Shown piece by piece: positions 1,541 through 43,774 of a stretch of 56,166 nt of DNA (position 1 is its first letter; each line of letters starts with the position of its first letter). This DNA is from a virus (Duplodnaviria; Caudoviricetes). The DNA is taken from the IMG/VR virus record IMGVR_UViG_3300027969_000125, positions 1 through 56,166 of that record; one strand, 5' to 3'. Both the position numbers and the translations under genes were made by a program. The notes below the pieces were generated by a model. That model worked only from the letters and a program-made list of their open reading frames with translations, was not told where the DNA came from and searched no databases.

Positions 1541-2452
1541 ATGGGACAATTTAAACCGATGGTGAAGATGGAGACCACTGAGCCTTCAGTCGAACTGAAG
1601 CTCAAAAAAGGCGGCATGGTGAAGAAGGCTGATGGCGGGATGATGGCCCCTCCTGCCGCTATGCCTCCTGCAATGCCCCCTGCAATGCCTGCTCGTGGCG
1701 GCCCAATGGGTGCGAAAGCTCCCTTGGCCCCCTCGTTGGCCGCTCGTCGCCGCGCTATGAAGATGATGGGTTCTGGCCCAGCGGCTCCTATTGGCATGGC
1801 AGCAAGTCGCATGAAAGAAGGCGGCAAGGCTGACATGGGCCAAGACAAGGCCATGATCAAGAAGGCGTTCAAGCAGCACGATATGCAAGAGCATAAGGGC
1901 GGCAAGGGCACCAATCTGAAGCTGAAAAAAGGCGGCAAGATGGCTACTGGCGGCGTTGTAAACGGCCAAGGTGGTTTTGCAACTGGCGGTGTAGTTGAAG
2001 GCCAAGGCGGATATGCAACGGGTGGCGTTGCTAAGTCAAATGGCGGCGGCTACAAAAAAGGCGGTGAAGCAAAAAAGCATTTCGCCACGGGGGGCAGTGT
2101 TAATAGCACTGGTTCTGCCGTGGCAATGCCACAAGGCCGTAAACCCGCCTCCAAGCCTGTAGCCATCAATGAACTTGCTGGAACCTACAAGCGTGGTGGC
2201 CGGGTTGCCAGCAAGATGAAGCTCAAAGATGGTGGTGATGTAGACCTGTCAAAAGGTGCCTACGATGACACACTCAATGAGCCTCCGATGGGTATGGGGT
2301 TTGCGAAGAAGGCGCATAGTTTCATGGACAGCCTGTTTGCAGGCAAGAAGGAAGCTGGTGCTGGCCGTGGTTTTGTGAACCCAAAAAGCGTAACCAAGTC
2401 GAAAGAGTCGGTTACTGTTGCGCCAATGAAAAAAGGCGGACGCGCCTGTTGA
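1541..2452 (+). CDS. Basic Lys/Gly/Met-rich protein with about 11 hydrophobic-[AK]-x-GG motifs; putative internal head protein
   Basis: AAGGAG RBS; LKKGG, MKEGG, MATGG, FATGG, YATGG, YKKGG, YKRGG, LKDGG, MKKGG; located in the head module. Confidence 0.6.
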   Translation: MGQFKPMVKMETTEPSVELKLKKGGMVKKADGGMMAPPAAMPPAMPPAMPARGGPMGAKAPLAPSLAARRRAMKMMGSGPAAPIGMAASRMKEGGKADMGQDKAMIKKAFKQHDMQEHKGGKGTNLKLKKGGKMATGGVVNGQGGFATGGVVEGQGGYATGGVAKSNGGGYKKGGEAKKHFATGGSVNSTGSAVAMPQGRKPASKPVAINELAGTYKRGGRVASKMKLKDGGDVDLSKGAYDDTLNEPPMGMGFAKKAHSFMDSLFAGKKEAGAGRGFVNPKSVTKSKESVTVAPMKKGGRAC

Positions 2453-2458
2453 AAACAA

Positions 2459-2484
2459 GTGGGGGCTTCGGCCCCTGCTTTCTT
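2459..2484 (+). terminator. Hairpin / probable terminator
   Basis: GGGGC-TTCG-GCCCC followed by TGCTTTCTTT. Confidence 0.6.
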
Positions 2485-2495
2485 TGGAGATTTTT

Positions 2496-2912
2496 ATGGC
2501 TGATGCAGTTGGAAGCCAAACGCTCTTTGATGGTGAGCGTAAGGCAATTATGAAATTCACAAACACCAGCGATGGCACTGGTGAGACCAACGTCGTCAAA
2601 GTCAACCCTGCGACGCTGTCTTCATCCAATGCTGGTGGCGCTTGCGATCGCGTGACGATCACAAAAATCACCGCTTTAACTCACGGCATGGAAGTGCAGT
2701 TGAAGTGGAAGGCAAGCACGCCTGTGGTCATCGAAACGATCCCCCAGAACAATTCATACCAGCAAGACTTTGAAAATATTGGTGGCCTGACCAACAACGC
2801 CGGTACTGGTGTTGACGGCGCAATCACGTTCACCACGCTTGATGCAAGCGCTGGCGACACCTACACGGTGGTGCTGGAGATGGTCAAACACTATGTAAAT
2901 CCGTTAGGTTGA
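2496..2912 (+). CDS. Hypothetical virion-module protein
   Basis: GGAG RBS before the ATG at 2496; lies in the structural operon. Confidence 0.6.
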   Translation: MADAVGSQTLFDGERKAIMKFTNTSDGTGETNVVKVNPATLSSSNAGGACDRVTITKITALTHGMEVQLKWKASTPVVIETIPQNNSYQQDFENIGGLTNNAGTGVDGAITFTTLDASAGDTYTVVLEMVKHYVNPLG

Positions 2913-3193
2913 TCATGCCAAGCAAGTCACCTGCTCAACATCGTTTGATGGAGGCGGTAGCGCACAATCCTGCGTTCGCCAAGAAGGTCGGCATCCCCGC
3001 AAAAGTCGGCAAAGAATTTGCCAATGCTGACGAGGGTAAAAAATTTAAAGGGGGTGGTCTGTATGCCAACATCAATGCAAAACGTGAGCGGATTGCCGAA
3101 GGCTCTGGCGAAAAGATGCGCCGAGTTGGCAGCAAAGGTGCGCCAACTGCTCAAGACTTCAAGCAGTCTGCAAAGACCGCCAAAGTAAAATGA
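2909..3193 (+). CDS. Small basic protein; two halves joined by FKGGG
   Basis: 94-aa Lys-rich ORF, translationally coupled to neighbours. Confidence 0.6.
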   Translation: MIMPSKSPAQHRLMEAVAHNPAFAKKVGIPAKVGKEFANADEGKKFKGGGLYANINAKRERIAEGSGEKMRRVGSKGAPTAQDFKQSAKTAKVK

Positions 3194-3441
3194 GCAAGAA
3201 GAATGTAAGCCTTGCCGTTGGTCGCGGAGAAAAATTGTCCGTTGACCGTGGTGCAGGGCTTACGCAAAAAGGCCGAGAGAAATACAATAGAGAGACCGGA
3301 TCTCACCTTAAAGCGCCACAGCCAAAGGGTGGCTCAAGACGCGATTCATTCTGCGCCCGAATGGGGCCAGTAGCTGAGAAAAGCGAAAAGGGAAGCCGTT
3401 CAAGGGCTTCAATGCAGCGATGGAATTGTCCCGGTTGGTAA
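3190..3441 (+). CDS. Small basic conserved phage protein (DUF6321-like)
   Basis: GAGLTQKGREKYNRETGSHLKAP...SFCARM...RWNC pattern; ATGA overlap with upstream gene. Confidence 0.55.
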   Translation: MSKKNVSLAVGRGEKLSVDRGAGLTQKGREKYNRETGSHLKAPQPKGGSRRDSFCARMGPVAEKSEKGSRSRASMQRWNCPGW

Positions 3442-3451
3442 AGGAAAACAC

Positions 3452-4513
3452 ATGGCCTACTCTGGAACGGTTGGGACAACGGTAATCACAGTCCAAACCC
3501 TGATTGACCACGGCGCTCGTCGGTGCGGCAAGCTGGCCGAGGAGTTGACTTCCGAGCAGGTTCTGTCGGCCCGTGAGTCGCTGTTCTTCCTGCTGTCCAA
3601 CCTGATCAACATTGGCATCCAATATTGGGCCATCGACAAGAAGGTTTACGGCTTCTCTCCTGACCGAGCAACATACCTGCTGCCTGTTGGCGGCAATGAC
3701 GTTCTAAACGCCTTGTATCGCTGGATGGAGCGCCCAAGCGGCGCGTATACGTCTTCTGCTGGCGGCACCTTGGGTAACGTCTATGACGGTGATGTGGACA
3801 CGATATGCACCCAGACATCGGCAAATGGCAACATTGCGGTCAATTACGGCCCATCAAATCCCATTTTCATAGGATCAATTGGCTTTCTTCCTGCGGCATC
3901 GGGCACTTGGTCGATCATTTACGAATACTCTCAGGACAACACCACTTGGAAGACGCTGGTTGACCTTGGCACAATCACGGTGACCAACAATGAATGGGTT
4001 TGGACGGACATTGATAACGGCCAGACTGTGCCGTACTACCGCATTCGAGCCTACAACGGCACCACATTGAGCTTGCGTGAGTGGTACTTGGGCAATAACT
4101 CCACCGAGATCACCATGTCGCGCTTAAACCGCGACGACTACACCAACCTGCCCAACAAGAACTTCACAGCCAACCAGCCGTTCCAGTTTTGGTTCAACCG
4201 CACGATCCCTCAAAGCGAGATTGTGCTGTGGCCGACGCCTCAAAACGCTTTTTACCAGATGACCATTTGGTACTCGCGTCAGATCATGGACGTTGGTGAC
4301 CTGTATGGCGAGTTAGAGGTGCCACAGCGCTGGTACATGGCCGTGGTGAGTATGCTGGCCCACCAAATGGGGCTGGAATTGCCCGGTGTGGACTTGAACC
4401 GCGTTGTTTATCTTGAGGCGCAAGCTGCCAAGTACCTATCGCAAGCCGAAGAGGAAGAGCGCGACAAGTCTCCAATCTACTTTGCGCCAAATATCAGCGT
4501 TTACACGAGGTAA
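3452..4513 (+). CDS. Head-tail adaptor / connector-like protein with an inserted beta-sandwich domain
   Basis: Helical N-terminus (ARESLFFLLSNLIN) and C-terminus (LWPTP...VPQRWYMAVVSMLAH) typical of adaptors; central discoidin-like segment. Confidence 0.55.
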   Translation: MAYSGTVGTTVITVQTLIDHGARRCGKLAEELTSEQVLSARESLFFLLSNLINIGIQYWAIDKKVYGFSPDRATYLLPVGGNDVLNALYRWMERPSGAYTSSAGGTLGNVYDGDVDTICTQTSANGNIAVNYGPSNPIFIGSIGFLPAASGTWSIIYEYSQDNTTWKTLVDLGTITVTNNEWVWTDIDNGQTVPYYRIRAYNGTTLSLREWYLGNNSTEITMSRLNRDDYTNLPNKNFTANQPFQFWFNRTIPQSEIVLWPTPQNAFYQMTIWYSRQIMDVGDLYGELEVPQRWYMAVVSMLAHQMGLELPGVDLNRVVYLEAQAAKYLSQAEEEERDKSPIYFAPNISVYTR

Positions 4514-4515
4514 TC

Positions 4516-4884
4516 ATGCCAGTCTTTCTGGACACCCTCGGTTATTCAGACATTGCAATCGCAATTTGCGACCGTTGCAAGATGAAGCGCCCCCATGCGG
4601 TTATGAGGAACGACCCAAACTTCCCCGGCCTGCGGGTGTGCAATGAAGGATGCGCTGACCAGCTTGATCCCTATAGGCTTGCCGCCCGCAAGACCGAGCG
4701 CATCACAATCCGCTTTCCTCGGCCAGACCTGCCGATAGCGGCAAATGACAACTACCTGATGACGGGAAGTCAAAACCTTGATGGTTCAAGCCAGTTCCAA
4801 ATCTCCACCGAGGGCAACACCCAGACGCCTCAAAACAATGGGAATTTGGATACCATAGCCCCCAACCCACCAACGAGTACATAA
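4516..4884 (+). CDS. Conserved phage protein with CxxC motifs
   Basis: ICDRC...RVCNEGC; GAGG RBS. Confidence 0.55.
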   Translation: MPVFLDTLGYSDIAIAICDRCKMKRPHAVMRNDPNFPGLRVCNEGCADQLDPYRLAARKTERITIRFPRPDLPIAANDNYLMTGSQNLDGSSQFQISTEGNTQTPQNNGNLDTIAPNPPTST

Positions 4885-7244
4885 TGTCCGCACAAGTTGT
4901 TATTACCCAATTGCCTGCCGCTGGTGCTATTACTGGTACTGAGGCCGTCCCCATCGTCCAGAACGGGGTAACGGTACGAACCACCACGGCTGCGATCGCG
5001 GCCTCTCCAAGCCAAACTCAAACCTTCCTGACCATCAATCAAGAGCCAACCCTGCCAAACAGCAGGTACTTCTCCACCGGCACTGGTTTGGGCCTTACTG
5101 ATGGCGGCGCACAGTCCTTCTACCGATTAAGCCTCAATGGCGCTTCTGGCAGCTTGGAAACAGCCTCCACTGGCCTGATTGTGAAGACCTCTGGTTCAAC
5201 GGTCGTTGCACGCTCGATAGTTGTTTCTGGCAATGGATTGAGTGTTTCTAATGCAAATGGCGTTAGTGGAAACCCTACATTGGCTTTGTCTGGTCTGGCG
5301 CAATCCATTGCTGACCTGAGCGGCACGGGAATGCTTGCGCTTAACTCTACGGGCACTGCCGTTGCTGGGCGCAACATTATTGGCACATCGGATCAGATTT
5401 CTGTTGCAGACGGCAACGGAGCTTTAGCCAACCCAACGATTGCAATTGCTGACAACCCAATACTTCCCGGAACTGGTGCAGTTACCGTTCCTGTTGGAAC
5501 CAACGCACAGCAGCCTCTTGGATCAAACGGACAAATCCGATACAACGTGGATTTGTTGGCCTACGAGGGGTACAACAACGGATCTTGGACAGTTTTTAGT
5601 ACGATTGGTGGTGGCGTTGTCAATAGTTTCAGCGCGGGATCAACTGGTTTTACTCCCTCTATTCCAACAAGTGGGCCAATTGTATTGGGTGGAGTTCTAA
5701 ATGCCTCAAACGGAGGCACTGGCGCAGCAACATTGACGGGCTATGTGTACGGCAACGGCACTGGCGTGATGACTGCGGCCACCACAATCCCCAATGCTGG
5801 CCTGACCAACAGCGCAATCACCATCAACGGCTCATCGGTGAGTTTGGGTGGTTCAGTCACCGTGACGGCCACAGCCTCCAACGCTTTGACCATTGGCACT
5901 GGGCTGTCTGGCACAAGCTACAACGGGTCTGCTGCGGTGACCATTGCCATAGACAGCACCGTGGCAACGCTGACGGGTAGCCAGACGCTGACCAACAAGA
6001 CCATCAGCGGGGCAAATAACACGCTTTCCAACATAGCCAATGCCTCACTGACCAATAGCTCTTTGACCGTAGGAACAACCGCCATATCGCTTGGCGGCTC
6101 ATCTTTGACTCTTGGCGGACTGACTTCGGTGGCCGTTACCCAAGACCCCGTATCGGCGTTGCAGCTTGCCACCAAACAGTATGTGGACGCAGTAGCCCAG
6201 AGTCTAAATGTCCATGCATCTTGTAGTGCTGCCACTCCAGCAACCCTTGCCTCAATCACTGGCGGCACGGTAACTTACAACAATGGCGCTTCAGGGGTCG
6301 GGGCAACCCTTACCCTGTCGGTTGCTTTGACCGTCTTGGATGGTTACACGCTGGTCAATGGCGACCGTTTGCTCATCAAGAACGAAGTTACGTCTGCCAA
6401 CAACGGCATCTACACATGGGCCACTGGCGGCACGGTTCTTACCCGCGCTACTGACTTTGACACCAATGTTGAGATTGCCAGCGGCGACTTTACGTTTGTC
6501 ACCAGCGGTACGCTCTACGCCAACACAGGCTGGGTGCAGACCCTACCAGTGACCACGGTTGGCACAAGTCCAATCTCTTGGACGCAGTTCTCTGGCGCGG
6601 GAACCTACACGGCGGGCACAGGATTAACCCTTACTGGCACGCAGTTCAGCATAACCAATACAGCGGTTACCGCTGGCGCATATGGTTCGGCCACGGCGGT
6701 GGGAACCTTTACGGTCAATGCACAGGGCCAGCTTACCTTGGCAGGCAACACCACGATTACGCCAGCGGTAGGCTCTATCACTGGTCTAGGTACTGGGGTT
6801 GCAACTGCTTTAGCTATTGCGGTAGGCACCGCAGGATCTGTATTGGTCAATGGCGGCGTTCTGGGTACTCCAAGCAGTGGCACGGTCACCAACCTGACTG
6901 GCACGGCTTCAATCAACATCAATGGCACGGTCGGCGCTACTACGGCCAGCACAGGCGCATTTACCACGGTATCGGCCACTGGTGTTATTACCTCAACCTT
7001 GGCAACTGGTACGGCACCATTTACTGTGGCCTCCACTACGCAGGTAGCCAACCTGAATGCGGCGACTGCTGGTACTGCAACAAACGCCACCAACGTGGCT
7101 CTTACGGCGGGCACTGGGGCAACAAATTATCTTCATTTTTCTGCCAGTGCCACAGGCAATCAACCCACTACAACAAACACCTTATTGACCTACAATTACA
7201 CCAATAATGCCCTGACCGCAGGCGTTACTGGTGGCACTTTCTGA
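4884..7244 (+). CDS. Tail fibre / fibre-like structural protein
   Basis: 786 aa, Thr/Gly/Ser-rich; fibre-type motifs ITQLPAA, QTLTNKTI, ATKQYVD, GDRLLIKNE...NGIY. Confidence 0.75.
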   Translation: MSAQVVITQLPAAGAITGTEAVPIVQNGVTVRTTTAAIAASPSQTQTFLTINQEPTLPNSRYFSTGTGLGLTDGGAQSFYRLSLNGASGSLETASTGLIVKTSGSTVVARSIVVSGNGLSVSNANGVSGNPTLALSGLAQSIADLSGTGMLALNSTGTAVAGRNIIGTSDQISVADGNGALANPTIAIADNPILPGTGAVTVPVGTNAQQPLGSNGQIRYNVDLLAYEGYNNGSWTVFSTIGGGVVNSFSAGSTGFTPSIPTSGPIVLGGVLNASNGGTGAATLTGYVYGNGTGVMTAATTIPNAGLTNSAITINGSSVSLGGSVTVTATASNALTIGTGLSGTSYNGSAAVTIAIDSTVATLTGSQTLTNKTISGANNTLSNIANASLTNSSLTVGTTAISLGGSSLTLGGLTSVAVTQDPVSALQLATKQYVDAVAQSLNVHASCSAATPATLASITGGTVTYNNGASGVGATLTLSVALTVLDGYTLVNGDRLLIKNEVTSANNGIYTWATGGTVLTRATDFDTNVEIASGDFTFVTSGTLYANTGWVQTLPVTTVGTSPISWTQFSGAGTYTAGTGLTLTGTQFSITNTAVTAGAYGSATAVGTFTVNAQGQLTLAGNTTITPAVGSITGLGTGVATALAIAVGTAGSVLVNGGVLGTPSSGTVTNLTGTASININGTVGATTASTGAFTTVSATGVITSTLATGTAPFTVASTTQVANLNAATAGTATNATNVALTAGTGATNYLHFSASATGNQPTTTNTLLTYNYTNNALTAGVTGGTF

Positions 7245-41145: not shown

Positions 41146-41326
41146 GCCGCCCTTTCCTAAGAAGCAATGGGGTGAGTTCTGGACACCGCCAGTAGAAGAC
41201 GATGCGCCATTTCCCGCAGACGTTGAAATGGACTGCGACACAGGGCGCTGGCGGTACGTCATCAACCGAGAGCAATACCGCGAGGAGTTTCGCGTGTGGG
41301 AAGCTGCTGTGCTGGGGCAAGCATGA
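41138..41326 (+). CDS. Hypothetical protein
   Basis: Overlaps the terS stop and the terL start. Confidence 0.45.
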   Translation: MSKPPFPKKQWGEFWTPPVEDDAPFPADVEMDCDTGRWRYVINREQYREEFRVWEAAVLGQA

Positions 41327-43638
41327 GTGACATCATCAAGTTGCTGCAAGACCCAGAGGTCAAGCGCAGCTTTGAGCTTGCCAGCCCAGAGGTGAAGCTG
41401 GCGACGGCTTGGCGGCTTACTTGGCTAGACAAGGCGCACAACCACCAGATCCTGCCCCATGGGGATTGGTGGAGCATCTGGCTGCTGCTGGCTGGCCGTG
41501 GCGCAGGCAAGACCCGTACAGCCGCCGAGCAGATCTCTTGGTGGGCGTGGACGCATCCCGGCACCCGCTGGCTTGTGGCCGCACCTACCTCGTCCGATGT
41601 CCGTTCGACCTGCTTTGAGGGTGACTCTGGCCTGATGGCCGTCATACCCGGCGCATTGATCAAGGACTACAACAAGGCGCTGCACGAGATCTACCTGACC
41701 AACGGCAGCCTGATCAAAGGCATACCGGCATCCGAGCCAGCCCGCTTCAGGGGGCCGCAGTTCCACGGCGCTTGGCTCGATGAGTTGGCCGCTTGGGATT
41801 ACATTCAGGACGCATGGGATCAGATCCAGTTCGGCGTGCGGCTGGGCACCAAGACCCACATCATCGTCACCACGACCCCGCAGCCCAAGGACTTGATCAT
41901 CGACCTAGTTGGCCGTGACGGGGACGATGTGGTGGTCACCACCGCCTCGACGTACACCAACCTAGCCAACCTGTCAGATAACTTCAGGAAGCAGATCCTG
42001 TCCTTTGAGGGCACCAAGCTAGGCAGGCAGGAGATCTACGCCGAGATCATCGACGCCGAGGAGGGTGGAGTCGTCCAGCGCTCGATGTTCAAGCTGTGGC
42101 CTGCTGGCCGCGCCTTCCCCAAGTTCGAGTACATCCTCCAGTCCTACGATGTGGCGACCTCGGAGAAGACGCAGAACGATCCGACGGCCTGCATCACGTT
42201 CGGCGTGTTCAAGCCTCTGGACGGCCCAATGAGCGCGATGGTGATCGACTGCTGGCAGGACAGGCTCCAGTATCCCGACCTGCGCCCCAAGGTGACCGAG
42301 GAGTATGAGATAGTCTACGGCGAAGGGAAGGACAAGAAGCGGGTGGACTTGCTGCTCATTGAGGACAAGAGCGCTGGTATCAGCCTGATCCAAGACTTGC
42401 AGCGTGCCCACTTGCCGGTGAGGGCGTACAACCCCGGACGGGCGGACAAGGTGCAGCGCCTGAACATCGTCTCCAACATCATCGCCCGTGGGCGGGTGTG
42501 GATACCTGAGTCGGACAACAGGAAGGGCTACGTCAAGGATTGGGCCGAGGTGTTCGTAAGCCAGATCTGCTCGTTCCCCAACAGCACGCACGATGATTTG
42601 GTGGACGCTTGTGTTGATAGCTTGACTCAAGTGCAAATGGCTTTTGGCACAAAGGCGATCAAGGATGTTTTGGTTGGCGACATGGTGATGACCCCGGCAG
42701 GGCTTCGCAAGGTTACGGCTGTACATGACAACGGCATCAAGGAAGTTTGGAATGTCAACGGTTTACTAGCTACGGCGGAACATCAAGTAATGACGCAAGA
42801 CGGGTGGTTGCGTGTTGACTGCTTGAGTCAATCAGTCCATAATATATATCTTTACAAGGATACATCATGGTTTTCAAATCAAGCGGAAAAGTGGTTGAGT
42901 CGGTGGTCTTCAACGGTCGCAAGTACAACCGTTACCCTGAGAGCAATAACCCAGCGCACCGCCGCTACTTTGCAAGGGCTGGCAACCGGCTTCACCGAGA
43001 CGTATGGAAGCACCACAACGGGCCAATCCCTGCGGGTATGCAAATCCATCACATTGACGGCAACACGGCCAACAACGACATCGGCAACTTGGCCTGCGTC
43101 ACAAACAAGCAGCACTGGGATGAGCATAGGGCCGAGGCATCTGAGCGCAGCAAACGGCCAGAACAGCTTGCGCATCTCAACAGGATTCGGGGCAGCGCTG
43201 CCGACTGGCACCGATCAGAAGAAGGGCGGGATTGGCACAGAGAACACGCAAAGACCTCTCTGGCAAAGACTTGGGGAAAGCCTAAGTCGTACTACCCAGC
43301 CCCTTACAAATGCGTTTGGTGCGGTTTTGACGGCATTGCCAAAGTTCCTGAGCGAAAGAAGTTCTGCTCCCCCACTTGCCAAAACGCCGAATCAAAGCAC
43401 CGCCTTGGTAAGACAAGTTACGAACACCCATACCATGCGTCATGTGTTCGACTTGACAGTGGAGGGTGAACACTGCTACTACGCCAACGGAATCTTGGTT
43501 CACAACTGCACCCAAGCCCTGCGCTACCTGCGGGATGCTGGCTGGCTAGACATTGACCCACCGCCAGAGGATAGCTGGGACGAGGACGACTACGTTGACT
43601 CTGGCAAGCAGCGTAAGGGTAATCCCTATGCAGCATAG
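41323..43638 (+). CDS. terL: Terminase large subunit, intein-containing
   Basis: Walker A AGRGAGKT, Walker B AWLDE, TTTP coupling motif; nuclease motifs SYDVA, IEDKSAG and HDDLVDA interrupted by an intein. Confidence 0.93.
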   Translation: MSDIIKLLQDPEVKRSFELASPEVKLATAWRLTWLDKAHNHQILPHGDWWSIWLLLAGRGAGKTRTAAEQISWWAWTHPGTRWLVAAPTSSDVRSTCFEGDSGLMAVIPGALIKDYNKALHEIYLTNGSLIKGIPASEPARFRGPQFHGAWLDELAAWDYIQDAWDQIQFGVRLGTKTHIIVTTTPQPKDLIIDLVGRDGDDVVVTTASTYTNLANLSDNFRKQILSFEGTKLGRQEIYAEIIDAEEGGVVQRSMFKLWPAGRAFPKFEYILQSYDVATSEKTQNDPTACITFGVFKPLDGPMSAMVIDCWQDRLQYPDLRPKVTEEYEIVYGEGKDKKRVDLLLIEDKSAGISLIQDLQRAHLPVRAYNPGRADKVQRLNIVSNIIARGRVWIPESDNRKGYVKDWAEVFVSQICSFPNSTHDDLVDACVDSLTQVQMAFGTKAIKDVLVGDMVMTPAGLRKVTAVHDNGIKEVWNVNGLLATAEHQVMTQDGWLRVDCLSQSVHNIYLYKDTSWFSNQAEKWLSRWSSTVASTTVTLRAITQRTAATLQGLATGFTETYGSTTTGQSLRVCKSITLTATRPTTTSATWPASQTSSTGMSIGPRHLSAANGQNSLRISTGFGAALPTGTDQKKGGIGTENTQRPLWQRLGESLSRTTQPLTNAFGAVLTALPKFLSERSSAPPLAKTPNQSTALVRQVTNTHTMRHVFDLTVEGEHCYYANGILVHNCTQALRYLRDAGWLDIDPPPEDSWDEDDYVDSGKQRKGNPYAA
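42815..42860 (+). promoter_or_regulatory. Internal sigma70-like promoter and RBS for the nested HNH gene
   Basis: TTGACT (42815-42820), 17-bp spacer, CATAAT (42838-42843); AAGGA (42856-42860) 6 nt before the ATG at 42867. Confidence 0.7.
42867..43469 (+). CDS. HNH homing endonuclease overprinted out of frame within the intein
   Basis: LHRDVW...GPIPAGMQIHHIDGNTANNDIGNLACV...H is an HNH_3-type motif; C-terminal CxxC...FCSPTC zinc module; own RBS. Confidence 0.88.
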   Translation: MVFKSSGKVVESVVFNGRKYNRYPESNNPAHRRYFARAGNRLHRDVWKHHNGPIPAGMQIHHIDGNTANNDIGNLACVTNKQHWDEHRAEASERSKRPEQLAHLNRIRGSAADWHRSEEGRDWHREHAKTSLAKTWGKPKSYYPAPYKCVWCGFDGIAKVPERKKFCSPTCQNAESKHRLGKTSYEHPYHASCVRLDSGG

Positions 43639-43646
43639 ATCAACAC

Positions 43647-43675
43647 TTGTCAACACCAACCGCCTGTGGTACGAT
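43647..43675 (+). promoter_or_regulatory. Sigma70-like promoter with extended -10
   Basis: TTGTCA, 17-bp spacer, TACGAT with TGn immediately upstream. Confidence 0.65.
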
Positions 43676-43680
43676 CCGTT

Positions 43681-43774
43681 CCGTTGCCGTAGGAAGCGAC
43701 CGACTGAAACCGTTTACTCATGCCTCTTCCCCCATTTGGGGTTCCTACAGGGGGCAGTAGTAAACGGTTTTTTT
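43681..43774 (+). ncRNA. Candidate structured small RNA / attenuator (reminiscent of c4-like phage RNAs)
   Basis: Two hairpins with complementary unpaired segments GTAGGAA/TTCCTAC; 12-bp stem AAACCGTTTACT/AGTAAACGGTTT ending in a T run. Confidence 0.5.

What the first reader, a model, noticed from the sequence alone, without database searches (positions are those of the whole stretch)
42610..43506. Intein whose homing endonuclease is a separate gene overprinted in another reading frame
Seen: the TerL intein has all splicing blocks, but the segment that normally holds an in-frame endonuclease is a featureless Thr/Ser-rich stretch of about 200 aa. The same DNA read in a shifted frame (42867-43469) is an intact HNH endonuclease with a C-terminal Cys4 module. 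Both frames are stop-free for 200 codons, and the HNH C-terminus even overlaps intein block F. Established: canonical homing inteins carry the endonuclease in frame between the splicing halves and insert at conserved active-site motifs; here that is the HDDLVDA nuclease motif. Inference: a free-standing HNH gene invaded a mini-intein, and the intein frame was kept open because TerL is essential. The result is a two-frame selfish element whose nuclease expression is uncoupled from late terL expression. I cannot confirm whether this architecture is already published.
Basis: partly seen in the sequence, partly recalled or inferred. Interest (0 to 1): 0.93.

Follow-up and report, generated by a model that had tools for sequence, protein, structure and literature searches.

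The report
Terminase intein hiding out-of-frame HNH gene
The phage's DNA-packaging gene carries a self-splicing protein insert (an intein), and the same DNA, read one base out of step, also encodes a complete HNH nuclease that probably spreads the insert; this is real and common, but the layout is already in print.

Summary
terL (41296-43638) is one open frame with a 299-codon intein (42610-43506) after the HDDLVDA motif. A 200-codon HNH_3 gene (42867-43469) lies in frame 3 of the intein's middle.

It is not an artefact. An independent sample gives the same sequence without indels. Of 138 homologous loci, 110 have the same layout and the same frame offset. Among close relatives, substitutions follow the HNH frame. 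The terL-frame linker drifts like non-coding sequence but never acquires a stop. The splicing residues are invariant.

In the window's own lineage, 70 of the 80 closest terL alleles are intein-free, including the four nearest. This pattern fits homing. The same HNH family also sits between split-intein halves (14 loci) and directly beside intein-free terL genes. Separate expression is suggested only by conserved promoter-like and Shine-Dalgarno-like motifs.

The layout is not new. A 2015 paper reports an out-of-frame HNH in brucellaphage terL inteins. [quoted passage not shown] This scan has already noted the layout on other DNA (57 notes, at least 52 genomes).

What appears unreported in my searches is this I-HmuI-like family, its nuclease-motif insertion site and its wide spread. 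I class it as a new member of a known kind, of moderate interest.

The parts
41296..43638 (+). terL (large terminase) precursor ORF: 780 codons from GTG 41296 (an ATG follows at 41323), stop at 43636-43638. The start codon was not determined.
   Evidence: ORF; Terminase_6N, Terminase_6C; PHROG terminase large subunit families.
41296..42609 (+). N-extein. It ends with the conserved ...NSTHDDLVDA motif at the end of the RNaseH-like nuclease domain.
   Evidence: (Terminase_6C profile positions 52-152 of 155 end at residue 443), (empty alleles read ...HDDLVDA|CTQALRYL).
42610..43506 (+). Intein, 299 codons: Cys1 ... TAEH (block B) ... VHN, followed by Cys+1.
   Evidence: C1, T55, H58, N299 invariant in 57 inteins; Hint fold; best matches are mini-inteins.
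42610..42864 (+). N-terminal splicing half (Hint-N, intein residues 1-85, blocks A and B).
   Evidence: (pLDDT 96-98 for residues 1-70, 89 for 71-80).
42815..42843 (+). Sigma-70-like promoter motif TTGACT-N17-CATAAT written in Hint-N codons (candidate, not shown to work).
   Evidence: 10 of 12 matches; kept in 22 of 22 close relatives, scores 8-10; family-wide enrichment; rare codons GTT and AAT fixed in the boxes.
42856..42860 (+). Shine-Dalgarno-like AAGGA, 6 nt before the HNH ATG.
   Evidence: an SD-like motif is present in 45 of 61 representatives.
42867..43469 (+). HNH homing-endonuclease gene, 200 codons, in frame 3 relative to terL.
   Evidence: HNH_3, 62.3 bits; H61, H62, N70, N74, H83 invariant in 95 sequences; AF2 pLDDT 92.1; only solved relative is I-HmuI, 1u3e; phrog_15471.
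42990..43115 (+). HNH_3 catalytic domain (HNH residues 42-83).
   Evidence: invariant residues.
43311..43379 (+). Cys4 zinc-ribbon-like module of the HNH protein (C149, C152, C167, C171).
   Evidence: the four Cys are nearly invariant; two short strand pairs at 145-158.
42865..43395 (+). terL-frame linker (intein residues 86-262): the 'shadow' translation of the HNH gene. Predicted disordered, kept free of stops.
   Evidence: pLDDT about 42-54, no secondary structure after residue 99; identity 0.46, close to the 0.43 of the unused frame; stop avoidance; 31% Thr+Ser.
43396..43506 (+). C-terminal splicing half (Hint-C, blocks F and G). It overlaps the last codons of the HNH gene.
   Evidence: (pLDDT 97-98 for residues 271-299), (HNH stop 31-85 nt before the intein end in 60 of 61 representatives).
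43507..43638 (+). C-extein (CTQALRYL..., 43 codons) and stop.

Best explanation
This is a two-part selfish element inside the essential terL gene of a freshwater phage.

Part one is a class-1-type intein inserted after the HDDLVDA motif of the terminase nuclease domain. It is translated as part of TerL and is expected to splice itself out, restoring TerL (inferred).

Part two is a complete, separately translated I-HmuI-like HNH_3 endonuclease gene with a Cys4 module. It sits where canonical inteins carry an in-frame endonuclease, but in frame 3.

The HNH reading frame is the one under protein-level selection. Read in the terL frame, the same bases give a roughly 180-residue disordered tether between the two splicing halves. 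Its only visible constraint is to have no stop codon, because a stop would break TerL.

The nuclease most likely nicks or cuts intein-free terL alleles of co-infecting relatives near the insertion site. Repair would then copy intein plus nuclease gene into them (homing). This step is inferred from the distribution, not shown.

The nuclease probably starts from its own ATG with a Shine-Dalgarno-like motif, and possibly from its own promoter inside the intein codons.

Origin: a free-standing terL-associated HNH gene entered an intein. Lineages whose terL frame stayed open remained contiguous, like this one. Others became split inteins.
For: Anatomy.

Same layout and same frame offset elsewhere:
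- 4 of 4 GenBank phages whose terL overlies the HNH match.
- 110 of 138 loci with a near-full-length HNH match.
- Of 61 representative host ORFs, 57 match Intein_splicing, 34 Terminase_6N and 19 Terminase_3.

Splicing residues: Cys1, the block B Thr and His, and the terminal Asn are invariant in 61 host ORFs and 57 inteins.

Structure: the model shows a confident Hint fold plus a disordered middle, and matches mini-inteins (6riz, E 6e-6).

Selection, in 22 distinct close relatives:
- Pairwise differences by HNH codon position are 0.248, 0.192 and 0.476.
- In the flanks, the third terL codon position varies most (0.47-0.55).
- Amino-acid identity is 0.69 in the HNH frame, 0.46 in the linker and 0.43 in the unused frame.

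Stop avoidance: 0 stops in 94 of 94 embedded genes against 2.06 expected. The M[TNKIM] dipeptides that force a stop occur in 0 of 94 embedded genes but in 11 of 27 unconstrained ones.

Nuclease integrity: the HNH frame is intact in 108 of 110 embedded loci, and the catalytic H, N and H residues are invariant in 95 sequences.

Mobility:
- 70 of the 80 closest terL relatives are intein-free, including the four nearest (97-99% amino-acid identity).
- The tree needs at least 5 changes of state for 11 filled alleles among 81.
- The intein is 5-15 points more similar than the N-extein to nine relatives: L006, L007, L009-L014 and L086.

Own expression signals: start codon ATG in 52 of 61 representatives, an SD-like motif in 45 of 61, and a promoter-like motif scoring at least 10 in 20 of 74 upstream windows against 20 of 1784 control windows.

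Origin: homologues lie free next to intein-free terL, and others lie between split-intein halves.
Against: No splicing, translation, transcript-start or cleavage data exist for this element or any relative I found.

The Pfam intein score of this copy is below the curated cut-off.

For the window alone, the open terL frame is not significant (P0 = 0.30). The family evidence comes from loci that are related to each other, and from the best 80 of 523 viral hits, so the counts are not independent samples.

The promoter-like boxes overlap conserved intein residues (Val-Asp, His-Asn). Part of their conservation may therefore be protein-level, and 39 of 74 representatives score below 9.

The co-conversion signal rests on two synonymous sites only.

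Patchy presence cannot tell gain from precise loss.

The closest sampled intein is only 88.5% identical in DNA, so no recent donor was found.

I-HmuI is, from recall, a nicking enzyme. How a nick would drive homing here is open.
Confidence: 0.8

Rival explanations
1. In this particular phage the nuclease gene is a silent or dying passenger. The intein works as a mini-intein with a long tether and is now inherited only vertically.
For: Decay of this kind occurs in relatives. In L105 and L065 the HNH frame is broken while the terL frame stays open. A contig in run X1 from a diverged relative joins 42855 to 43397 with 4 other letters. That is a net loss of 537 nt (179 codons), in frame, and removes the HNH gene. 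There are no expression data for the window.
Against: The window's HNH ORF is complete, with all invariant catalytic and Cys residues, its start codon, the SD-like motif and the promoter-like motif. Its closest relatives show purifying selection in that frame. The four nearest terL alleles are empty, which suggests a fairly recent gain.
Confidence: 0.1
2. The HNH protein is a helper of the terminase in DNA packaging (like the HNH proteins next to terminase genes described by Kala et al. 2014, as cited in PMC4422536), not a homing enzyme.
For: Relatives of this HNH are almost always beside or inside terminase genes. Of 28 non-embedded loci, 25 have a TerL-like match on the same strand. BP10 has the gene just upstream of terS. 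The 2015 brucellaphage paper raised this idea for its own HNH.
Against: The gene is dispensable: 70 of the 80 closest terL relatives have neither intein nor HNH. It always travels with an intein or right at terL. Its only solved relative is the homing endonuclease I-HmuI. The Pfam family is HNH_3, not the PF01844 HNH.
Confidence: 0.05
3. The nuclease is made by a programmed -1 ribosomal frameshift from the terL frame, as a fusion to the N-extein and Hint-N, not from its own start.
For: The HNH frame is the -1 frame of terL. In TJE1 the HNH frame is open for 90 codons upstream of its ATG.
Against: In the window a stop in the HNH frame lies 8 codons before the ATG. I see no X XXY YYZ slippery heptamer in those 24 nt (read by eye). 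A start codon at the homologous place is found in 61 of 61 representatives, and an SD-like motif in 45 of 61. In split forms the HNH is a separate ORF in varying frames relative to Hint-N.
Confidence: 0.03
4. Assembly or sequencing artefact: two compensating indels hide a normal in-frame HNH intein.
For: None found.
Against: Contigs of an independent run (X3) cover 42300-43700. No indel was listed for any of the four runs laid, and the only other letters were in short contigs at 43423-43700. The same offset holds in 110 loci from unrelated assemblies. Codon periodicity switches frame exactly at the HNH borders.
Confidence: 0.01

Closest known systems
Brucellaphage (Tb, Pr and relatives) terL intein with a nested out-of-frame HNH gene (GenBank NC_019446 annotation; Virol J 2015;12:66, PMC4422536)
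   Same: terL is one open frame with an intein. A complete HNH gene lies inside it on the same strand in another frame. [quoted passage not shown] I confirmed the coordinates and Pfam hits.
   Different: The HNH family differs (PF01844 with the catalytic motif at the C-terminus; only a 32-residue local match to the window's HNH, E 7e-4). The insertion site differs (intein at TerL residues about 181-506, before the second half of Terminase_6N). The frame offset differs ((3170-2347) mod 3 = 1). No selection or distribution analysis appears in the passages I read.
Non-canonical actinobacteriophage inteins with an endonuclease VII-like gene in reading frame 3 (Gosselin, Arsenault and Gogarten, bioRxiv 10.1101/2025.01.02.630785)
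   Same: The nuclease ORF lies between the splicing blocks, on the same strand, in frame 3. The in-frame translation has no recognisable structure. terL is one of the hosts. The authors propose the same origin model (a free-standing nuclease gene invading an intein) and see signs of continuing transfer.
   Different: Their nuclease is endonuclease VII-like (IPR004211, matched to 1E7D over residues 1-67). This one is HNH_3 and I-HmuI-like, and no endonuclease VII chain was hit. Their set is PhagesDB actinophages. tblastn with the actinophage TJE1 copy found 22 GenBank phage records, none named for a PhagesDB host genus among those listed.
Fractured genes: split inteins with a free-standing homing-endonuclease gene between the halves (Dassa et al. 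2009, PMC2677866)
   Same: The nuclease gene sits at the intein's endonuclease site as its own ORF, and its 3' end overlaps the C-terminal intein part (they report overlaps of 6-69 bp). A terminase was among their hosts. Fourteen relatives of the window's HNH have exactly this split layout.
   Different: In the window the host gene is not broken: the terL frame runs through the nuclease gene. Their nucleases were GIY-YIG and Vsr-like. They only predicted that HNH genes could do the same.
ShiLan insertion: out-of-frame HNH gene inside a mycobacteriophage DNA methylase (Arsenault et al. 2025, PMC11855218)
   Same: A hidden HNH gene in another frame of an insertion that keeps the host frame open (abstract and passages read).
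   Different: That insertion has no intein splicing domain. No ribosome-binding site was detected there, and the authors suggest leaderless initiation. Here splicing blocks and an SD-like motif are present.
I-HmuI, intron-encoded HNH homing endonuclease of Bacillus phage SPO1 (PDB 1U3E)
   Same: It is the only solved structure matched by the family profile (E 7e-4, profile positions 24-98) and the top Foldseek hit (probability 0.94).
   Different: The match is weak and covers the catalytic part only. I-HmuI is encoded in a group I intron (recalled). The helical WHxSxEG region and the Cys4 module have no solved counterpart among the hits.
[quoted passage not shown]
   Same: Intein plus HNH_3. 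Four proteins with Intein_splicing and HNH_3 in one frame were found, at least two of them ribonucleotide reductases.
   Different: They match only 25-31% of the window's HNH (the motif region). No in-frame full-length relative was found, which is weak evidence according to the tool's own caveat.

Membership tests
Intein (Hint superfamily, class 1 splicing chemistry) | Cys/Ser at position 1, block B TxxH, C-terminal (H)N, and Cys/Ser/Thr at +1 | tested here: met
   The window has C1, TAEH, VHN and C+1. C1, T55, H58 and N299 are invariant in 57 inteins. The +1 Cys is nearly invariant in 61 host ORFs.
Intein (Hint superfamily, class 1 splicing chemistry) | Hint fold formed by the N- and C-terminal parts | tested here: met
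   The AF2 model has pLDDT 96-98 at residues 1-70 and 271-299. Its best Foldseek matches are the gp41-1, DnaB and RecA mini-inteins, with 31 hits at E <= 0.001. The Pfam Intein_splicing score of this copy is below the curated cut-off: 33.4 against 35.8.
Intein (Hint superfamily, class 1 splicing chemistry) | Protein splicing takes place | not testable with these tools
   Inferred only, from invariant residues and from the fact that terL is essential for packaging.
HNH_3 / I-HmuI-like homing endonuclease | HNH_3 domain above the curated score, with conserved beta-beta-alpha-metal His/Asn residues | tested here: met
   62.3 bits against a cut-off of 24.8. H61, H62, N70, N74 and H83 are invariant in 95 sequences. 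The profile matches 1u3e.
HNH_3 / I-HmuI-like homing endonuclease | Site-specific cutting of the element-free allele, and homing | not testable with these tools
   Indirect evidence only: 70 of 80 nearest alleles are empty, the tree needs at least 5 changes, and the intein is more conserved than the extein.
Non-canonical intein with the endonuclease in a separate reading frame (2015 brucellaphage report; 2025 preprint) | A complete nuclease ORF between the splicing blocks, on the same strand, in another frame, with the host frame open through it | tested here: met
Non-canonical intein with the endonuclease in a separate reading frame (2015 brucellaphage report; 2025 preprint) | The nuclease belongs to one of the published families (endonuclease VII-like; PF01844 HNH) | tested here: not met
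   The only Pfam hit is HNH_3. No endonuclease VII chain appears in the profile or fold searches. There is only a 32-residue local match to the Tb HNH.
Fractured gene with split intein (Dassa et al. 2009) | The host gene is divided into two ORFs that end and begin with intein halves | tested here: not met
   The window's terL has no internal stop. The feature is met in 14 relatives.
Canonical homing intein | The endonuclease domain is in frame with the splicing domain | tested here: not met
   The in-frame middle has no Pfam nuclease hit and is predicted disordered.

The most novel reading that the evidence does not exclude
The out-of-frame state may be a stable, selected design for this nuclease family rather than a short-lived accident on the way to an in-frame intein. 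It is the majority state (110 of 138 loci) across at least two terminase families and many host groups, and no in-frame full-length relative was found.

The terL frame is always the one that costs the nuclease least to keep open: about 5.5 stops to avoid, against about 17 in the other frame.

Promoter, ribosome site, intein codons and nuclease codons appear to be written on top of each other. This could let the nuclease be made before, and in different amounts from, late-expressed TerL.

On this reading, contiguous and split inteins interconvert within one family simply by loss or gain of stops in the tether. That would make the family a natural test bed for how inteins acquire nucleases and how split inteins arise.
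Probability: 0.3. Interest if true: 0.6.

Novelty: new member of a known kind. Interest (0 to 1): 0.4.

Why it matters
Gene callers annotate only terL at such loci. TJE1, Highwayman, phiCDHM19 and LS06-2018-MD07 have no HNH feature there. A widespread nuclease gene therefore goes unseen, and the intein looks like a 'mini-intein with a long insert'.

The family offers three states of one element: free beside terL, overprinted in a contiguous intein, and between split-intein halves. This bears on the 'splicing first, nuclease later' model of intein origin and on the origin of split inteins.

It is also a clean natural example of how an essential host frame constrains an overlapping selfish gene. 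Stop-forcing dipeptides are absent and codon choice is biased.

For this window itself, the result is a correct annotation rather than a discovery of a new kind.

Tried and rejected
In-frame relatives. A search of longer proteins gave only 4 proteins, each matching 25-31% of the query. The tool warns that a blank is weak evidence.

Direct comparison with the preprint's endonuclease VII-like sequences. This was not possible because the supplements are closed. I used Pfam, a PDB profile search and Foldseek instead, plus tblastn with the actinophage TJE1 copy.

Literature.
- Five full-text searches were run.
- For an out-of-frame nuclease in an intein or host gene they returned four papers: the 2025 preprint, the ShiLan paper, a genome announcement (listing only) and the 2015 brucellaphage paper.
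- 'TJE1' plus 'intein' gave 0 papers.
- Passages of PMC7468147 and PMC5050341 held nothing on out-of-frame nucleases.
- I found no paper on this HNH_3 family in terL inteins. Subscription journals are not in the library.

Co-conversion tracts. Of 23 sites where the window differs from all four nearest empty alleles, only two (-15 and -12) match the filled alleles. This is suggestive, no more.

RNA evidence. One metatranscriptome run (X10) has two contigs identical to 42350-42500 and 43270-43532. DNA can be present in such libraries and contigs show no starts, so this is not evidence of expression. Small-share runs were not used for habitat.

Foldseek of the HNH model gave no hit at E <= 0.001; the top hit was 1u3e at E 0.025.

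Programmed frameshift. Rejected as the main route (see rivals).

phi CD119. Its record annotates terL as a short ORF plus a 'hypothetical protein'. I did not work out whether this is a split form or an annotation choice.

Not run: complex prediction, the protein atlas, the representative-library search and the metagenome scan. They were not needed.


Full report
WHAT IS THERE

The window is a complete 56,166-base virus record with one copy of the element. On the + strand, an ORF at 41296-43638 (780 codons) has no internal stop. In Pfam it matches Terminase_6N (E 6.3e-23) and Terminase_6C (3.6e-08). It also matches the intein splicing domain, but below the curated cut-off: 29.8 bits for the whole protein and 33.4 bits for the intein alone, against 35.8.

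The intein is 299 codons (42610-43506). It starts with Cys directly after ...NSTHDDLVDA, contains TAEH (block B) and ends in VHN followed by Cys.

A second ORF, 42867-43469 (200 codons), lies on the same strand two bases out of step, which is frame 3. It matches HNH_3 at 62.3 bits against a cut-off of 24.8. It has an ATG preceded at 6 nt by AAGGA. Its stop lies 37 nt before the intein's end, inside the C-terminal splicing block.

The terL-frame reading of the overlap is 31% Thr+Ser.

IS IT AN ARTEFACT OR CHANCE?

Contigs of an independent freshwater run (X3) cover 42300-43700. No indel was listed for any of the four runs laid. The only other letters were in short contigs at 43423-43700.

tblastn of the HNH protein against 50,697 GenBank phage records hit 180 records. 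In four cultured or assembled phages the match lies inside an annotated terL: Tetrasphaera phage TJE1, Acinetobacter phage Highwayman, Clostridium phage phiCDHM19 and Rhodobacteraceae phage LS06-2018-MD07. In all four, terL is one open frame and the HNH homologue sits at offset 2.

A profile of six HNH proteins (A1) found 523 relatives in IMG/VR, of which the best 80 were kept, and 73 loci in GTDB genomes.

Of 155 loci with a match, 138 have a match of at least 141 residues. Of these 138:
- 110 have a stop-free ORF of several hundred to about 1,190 codons (shorter only where the contig ends) running through the HNH gene, always in the frame one base after the HNH frame;
- 28 do not.

The 110 collapse to 75 clusters at 80% identity. 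Of 61 representatives, 57 match Intein_splicing, 34 Terminase_6N, 19 Terminase_3, 24 Terminase_6C and 10 Terminase_3C. The element therefore sits at the equivalent nuclease-domain motif of at least two terminase families. The longest ORFs are TerL proteins with a second intein further upstream.

WHICH FRAME IS UNDER SELECTION?

In 22 distinct close relatives (HNH identity 60-91%), mean pairwise differences at HNH codon positions 1, 2 and 3 are 0.248, 0.192 and 0.476.

In 20 of these (two contigs were too short upstream), the third terL codon position varies most in every flank:
- N-extein: 0.203, 0.144, 0.471;
- Hint-N: 0.269, 0.175, 0.536;
- after the HNH stop: 0.199, 0.154, 0.547.

The periodicity therefore switches frame at the borders of the HNH gene. 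Mean amino-acid identity over the overlap is 0.69 in the HNH frame and 0.46 in the terL frame. The unused third frame gives 0.43. The conserved-looking spots in the linker (SIT.T.T, GI..KK..GI) are shadows of the HH.D and WH.SEEG motifs.

Stop avoidance:
- 94 distinct embedded genes have 0 stops in the terL frame, against 2.06 expected after permuting synonymous codons. The median chance of zero is 0.045, and 50 of 94 fall below 0.05.
- 27 homologues without a spanning frame have 5.48 stops, against 5.82 expected.
- Dipeptides that force a stop in that frame (Met followed by T, N, K, I or M) occur in 0 of 94 embedded genes and in 11 of 27 others.
- The third frame carries about 17 stops in both groups, so the terL frame is the cheapest one to keep open.
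- For the window alone the chance of zero is 0.30. The case rests on the family, whose members are not independent.

IS THE INTEIN LIKELY TO SPLICE, AND THE NUCLEASE TO WORK?

Cys1, the block B Thr and His, and the terminal Asn are invariant in 61 host ORFs and 57 inteins. The +1 Cys is nearly invariant.

AlphaFold2 with 57 sequences gives pLDDT 96-98 for residues 1-70 and 271-299, and about 42-54 with no secondary structure for residues 100-260. Foldseek matches this model to mini-inteins such as gp41-1 (6riz, E 6e-6), DnaB and RecA.

The HNH model has mean pLDDT 92.1. H61, H62, N70, N74 and H83 are invariant, and the four Cys of the C-terminal module are nearly invariant, in 95 sequences. 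The only solved relative is the homing endonuclease I-HmuI (profile E 7e-4; Foldseek probability 0.94, E 0.025). The best PHROG family is phrog_15471, HNH endonuclease.

The HNH frame is intact in 108 of 110 embedded loci. In L105 and L065 it is broken while terL stays open. Splicing and cutting themselves are inferred.

SIGNS OF MOBILITY IN THE WINDOW'S OWN LINEAGE

Of the 80 closest terL N-extein relatives in IMG/VR (80-99% amino-acid identity), 70 have no intein: the ORF ends 43-45 codons after the N-extein match and reads CTQALRYL. Ten have the intein with the HNH gene at offset 2.

The four nearest relatives (97-99%) are all empty. A GenBank relative, MW202545.1, is also empty (494 codons).

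On a tree of 81 N-extein sequences, the 11 filled alleles need at least 5 changes of state, 4 of them forced by well-supported branches. The window sits in a 100%-supported group with four empty alleles. The tree cannot tell gain from precise loss.

Against the filled relatives, the window's N-extein is 76.5-78.9% identical in DNA but its intein is 80.3-87.5% identical. Against nine relatives found through the HNH gene (L006, L007, L009-L014, L086), the intein exceeds the N-extein by 5-15 points. For example, L011 gives 0.628 against 0.778, and L007 gives 0.774 against 0.885. For more distant relatives the excess disappears.

The two Asp codons just before the insertion site are GAT GAT in 9 of 11 filled alleles, including the window. 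They are GAC GAC in 52 of 70 empty alleles and GAT GAT in only 5 of 70. These are the only two of 23 window-specific sites that match the filled alleles. This is a weak hint of co-conversion.

EXPRESSION

A start codon stands at the homologous place in 61 of 61 representatives (ATG 52, TTG 5, GTG 4), with an SD-like motif in 45 of 61.

The scan confirms it at 10 of 12 matches. All 22 close relatives keep it, with scores of 8-10.

Its boxes use GTT and AAT, which make up only 13% of Val codons and 12% of Asn codons in the exteins. Across 74 representatives, a score of at least 10 is found upstream of the HNH start in 20, against 20 of 1,784 control windows of the same ORFs. However, 39 of 74 score below 9.

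This fits a separate promoter but does not show one. The boxes also encode conserved Val-Asp and His-Asn residues.

RELATIVES IN OTHER LAYOUTS

The 28 loci without a spanning frame are not all simply free-standing.
- Split form (14 loci). A TerL ORF ends in Hint-N at the HNH start, and a short ORF with Hint-C and the C-extein begins in the HNH 3' end. Hint-N stands in varying frames relative to the HNH. This is a split intein in a fractured terL, found for example in prophage-like regions of Peptococcus simiae and Megasphaera cerevisiae. One of the 14, L139, looks decayed.
- L113 is cut by the contig end.
- No Hint part (13 loci). The HNH gene stands directly after an intein-free terL (L034, L057, L118, L124, L127; also Sphaerotilus phage SN1) or before terS (BP10).
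- L099 and L112 keep Hint-N and Hint-C in the contiguous frame relation but have 6 and 7 stops between them.

These layouts are the intermediates expected under the invasion model of Dassa et al. 2009 and of the 2025 preprint.

A contig in run X1 from a diverged relative joins 42855 to 43397 with four other letters. That is a net in-frame loss of 537 nt, which removes the nuclease gene. It may be a natural mini-intein derivative.

WHAT IS KNOWN

The architecture is in print.

(i) Virol J 2015;12:66 (PMC4422536, passages read) states that a putative intein-encoded HNH gene lies out of frame within terL in all brucellaphages. GenBank NC_019446 annotates terL 2347-4893 as 'intein present' and an HNH CDS at 3170-3856. 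I found:
- offset 1 rather than 2;
- Pfam HNH PF01844 rather than HNH_3;
- an intein in the ATPase part of TerL;
- only a 32-residue local match to the window's protein.

(ii) The preprint 10.1101/2025.01.02.630785 (abstract, sections 8 and 15, passages of section 28) reports actinophage inteins, some in terL, with an endonuclease VII-like gene in frame 3. It proposes the same origin.

(iii) Dassa et al. 2009 (passages) describe the split form with other nucleases.

(iv) The ShiLan paper (abstract and passages) describes a hidden HNH gene without an intein.

Five full-text searches found no report of this HNH_3 family in terL inteins. The preprint's supplements were closed.

This scan has noted the same layout before on other DNA: 57 notes in at least 52 genomes. 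Earlier follow-ups reached the same verdict. One of them gave me the brucellaphage lead, which I then checked myself.

VERDICT

It is a new member of a known kind: a different nuclease family, insertion site and host range from the published cases. It also has useful family-level evidence on selection, mobility and the link to split inteins. Interest 0.4.

Noticed in passing
window 42855-43397 (run X1): A 148-nt contig from a diverged relative in a freshwater run joins 42855 to 43397 with four other letters. That is a net in-frame loss of 537 nt (179 codons), which would remove the HNH gene and leave a mini-intein.
   Followed up: partly
L111 1533-3772; L136 1507-3775; L104, L112, L098, L121: In prophage-like regions of Firmicutes genomes the same HNH family lies between a TerL ORF ending in Hint-N and a short ORF starting with Hint-C. 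This is a split intein in a fractured terL. SD-like motifs stand before candidate starts of the C-terminal ORF.
   Followed up: partly
L034 2950-3474; L057; L118; L124; L127; L243 1765-2382 (Sphaerotilus phage SN1): Free-standing copies of the HNH gene sit immediately downstream of intein-free terL genes. L034 is 48% identical to the window's HNH and has only 1 stop in the terL-equivalent frame.
   Followed up: partly
L088, L123, L028, L016, L023, L060: TerL ORFs of 1,040-1,191 codons carry two inteins. One is upstream of, or within, the ATPase part (with LAGLIDADG_3 in L123 and L028). The other is the nuclease-motif intein with the overprinted HNH.
   Followed up: partly
L105 and L065: The HNH frame is interrupted while the terL frame stays open for 824 and 1,113 codons. 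These are examples of nuclease decay inside a still-contiguous intein.
   Followed up: no
L018, L021, L022, L024-L027: In these relatives the intein follows ...HDDF and the C-extein starts CDA... This suggests an insertion point three codons upstream of the window's site (HDDLVDA|C).
   Followed up: no
window 42592-42600 (two Asp codons before the insertion site): These codons are GAT GAT in 9 of 11 intein-bearing alleles, but GAC GAC in 52 of 70 empty alleles and in the window's four nearest empty relatives.
   Followed up: partly
window 42350-42500 and 43270-43532 (run X10): Two contigs of a lake metatranscriptome library are identical to the window here. This is not evidence of transcription on its own.
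   Followed up: no
L242 (Clostridium phage phi CD119) 764-2581: The record annotates a short terL (323 codons) and a separate 'hypothetical protein' where the close relative phiCDHM19 has one 799-codon terL with intein and hidden HNH. I did not resolve whether this is a split form or an annotation choice.
   Followed up: no
window 42550-43000: G+C drops to about 0.49 over the start of the intein, against 0.58-0.64 in the N-extein. This is consistent with foreign origin of the insert or with the AT-rich promoter-like stretch.
   Followed up: no
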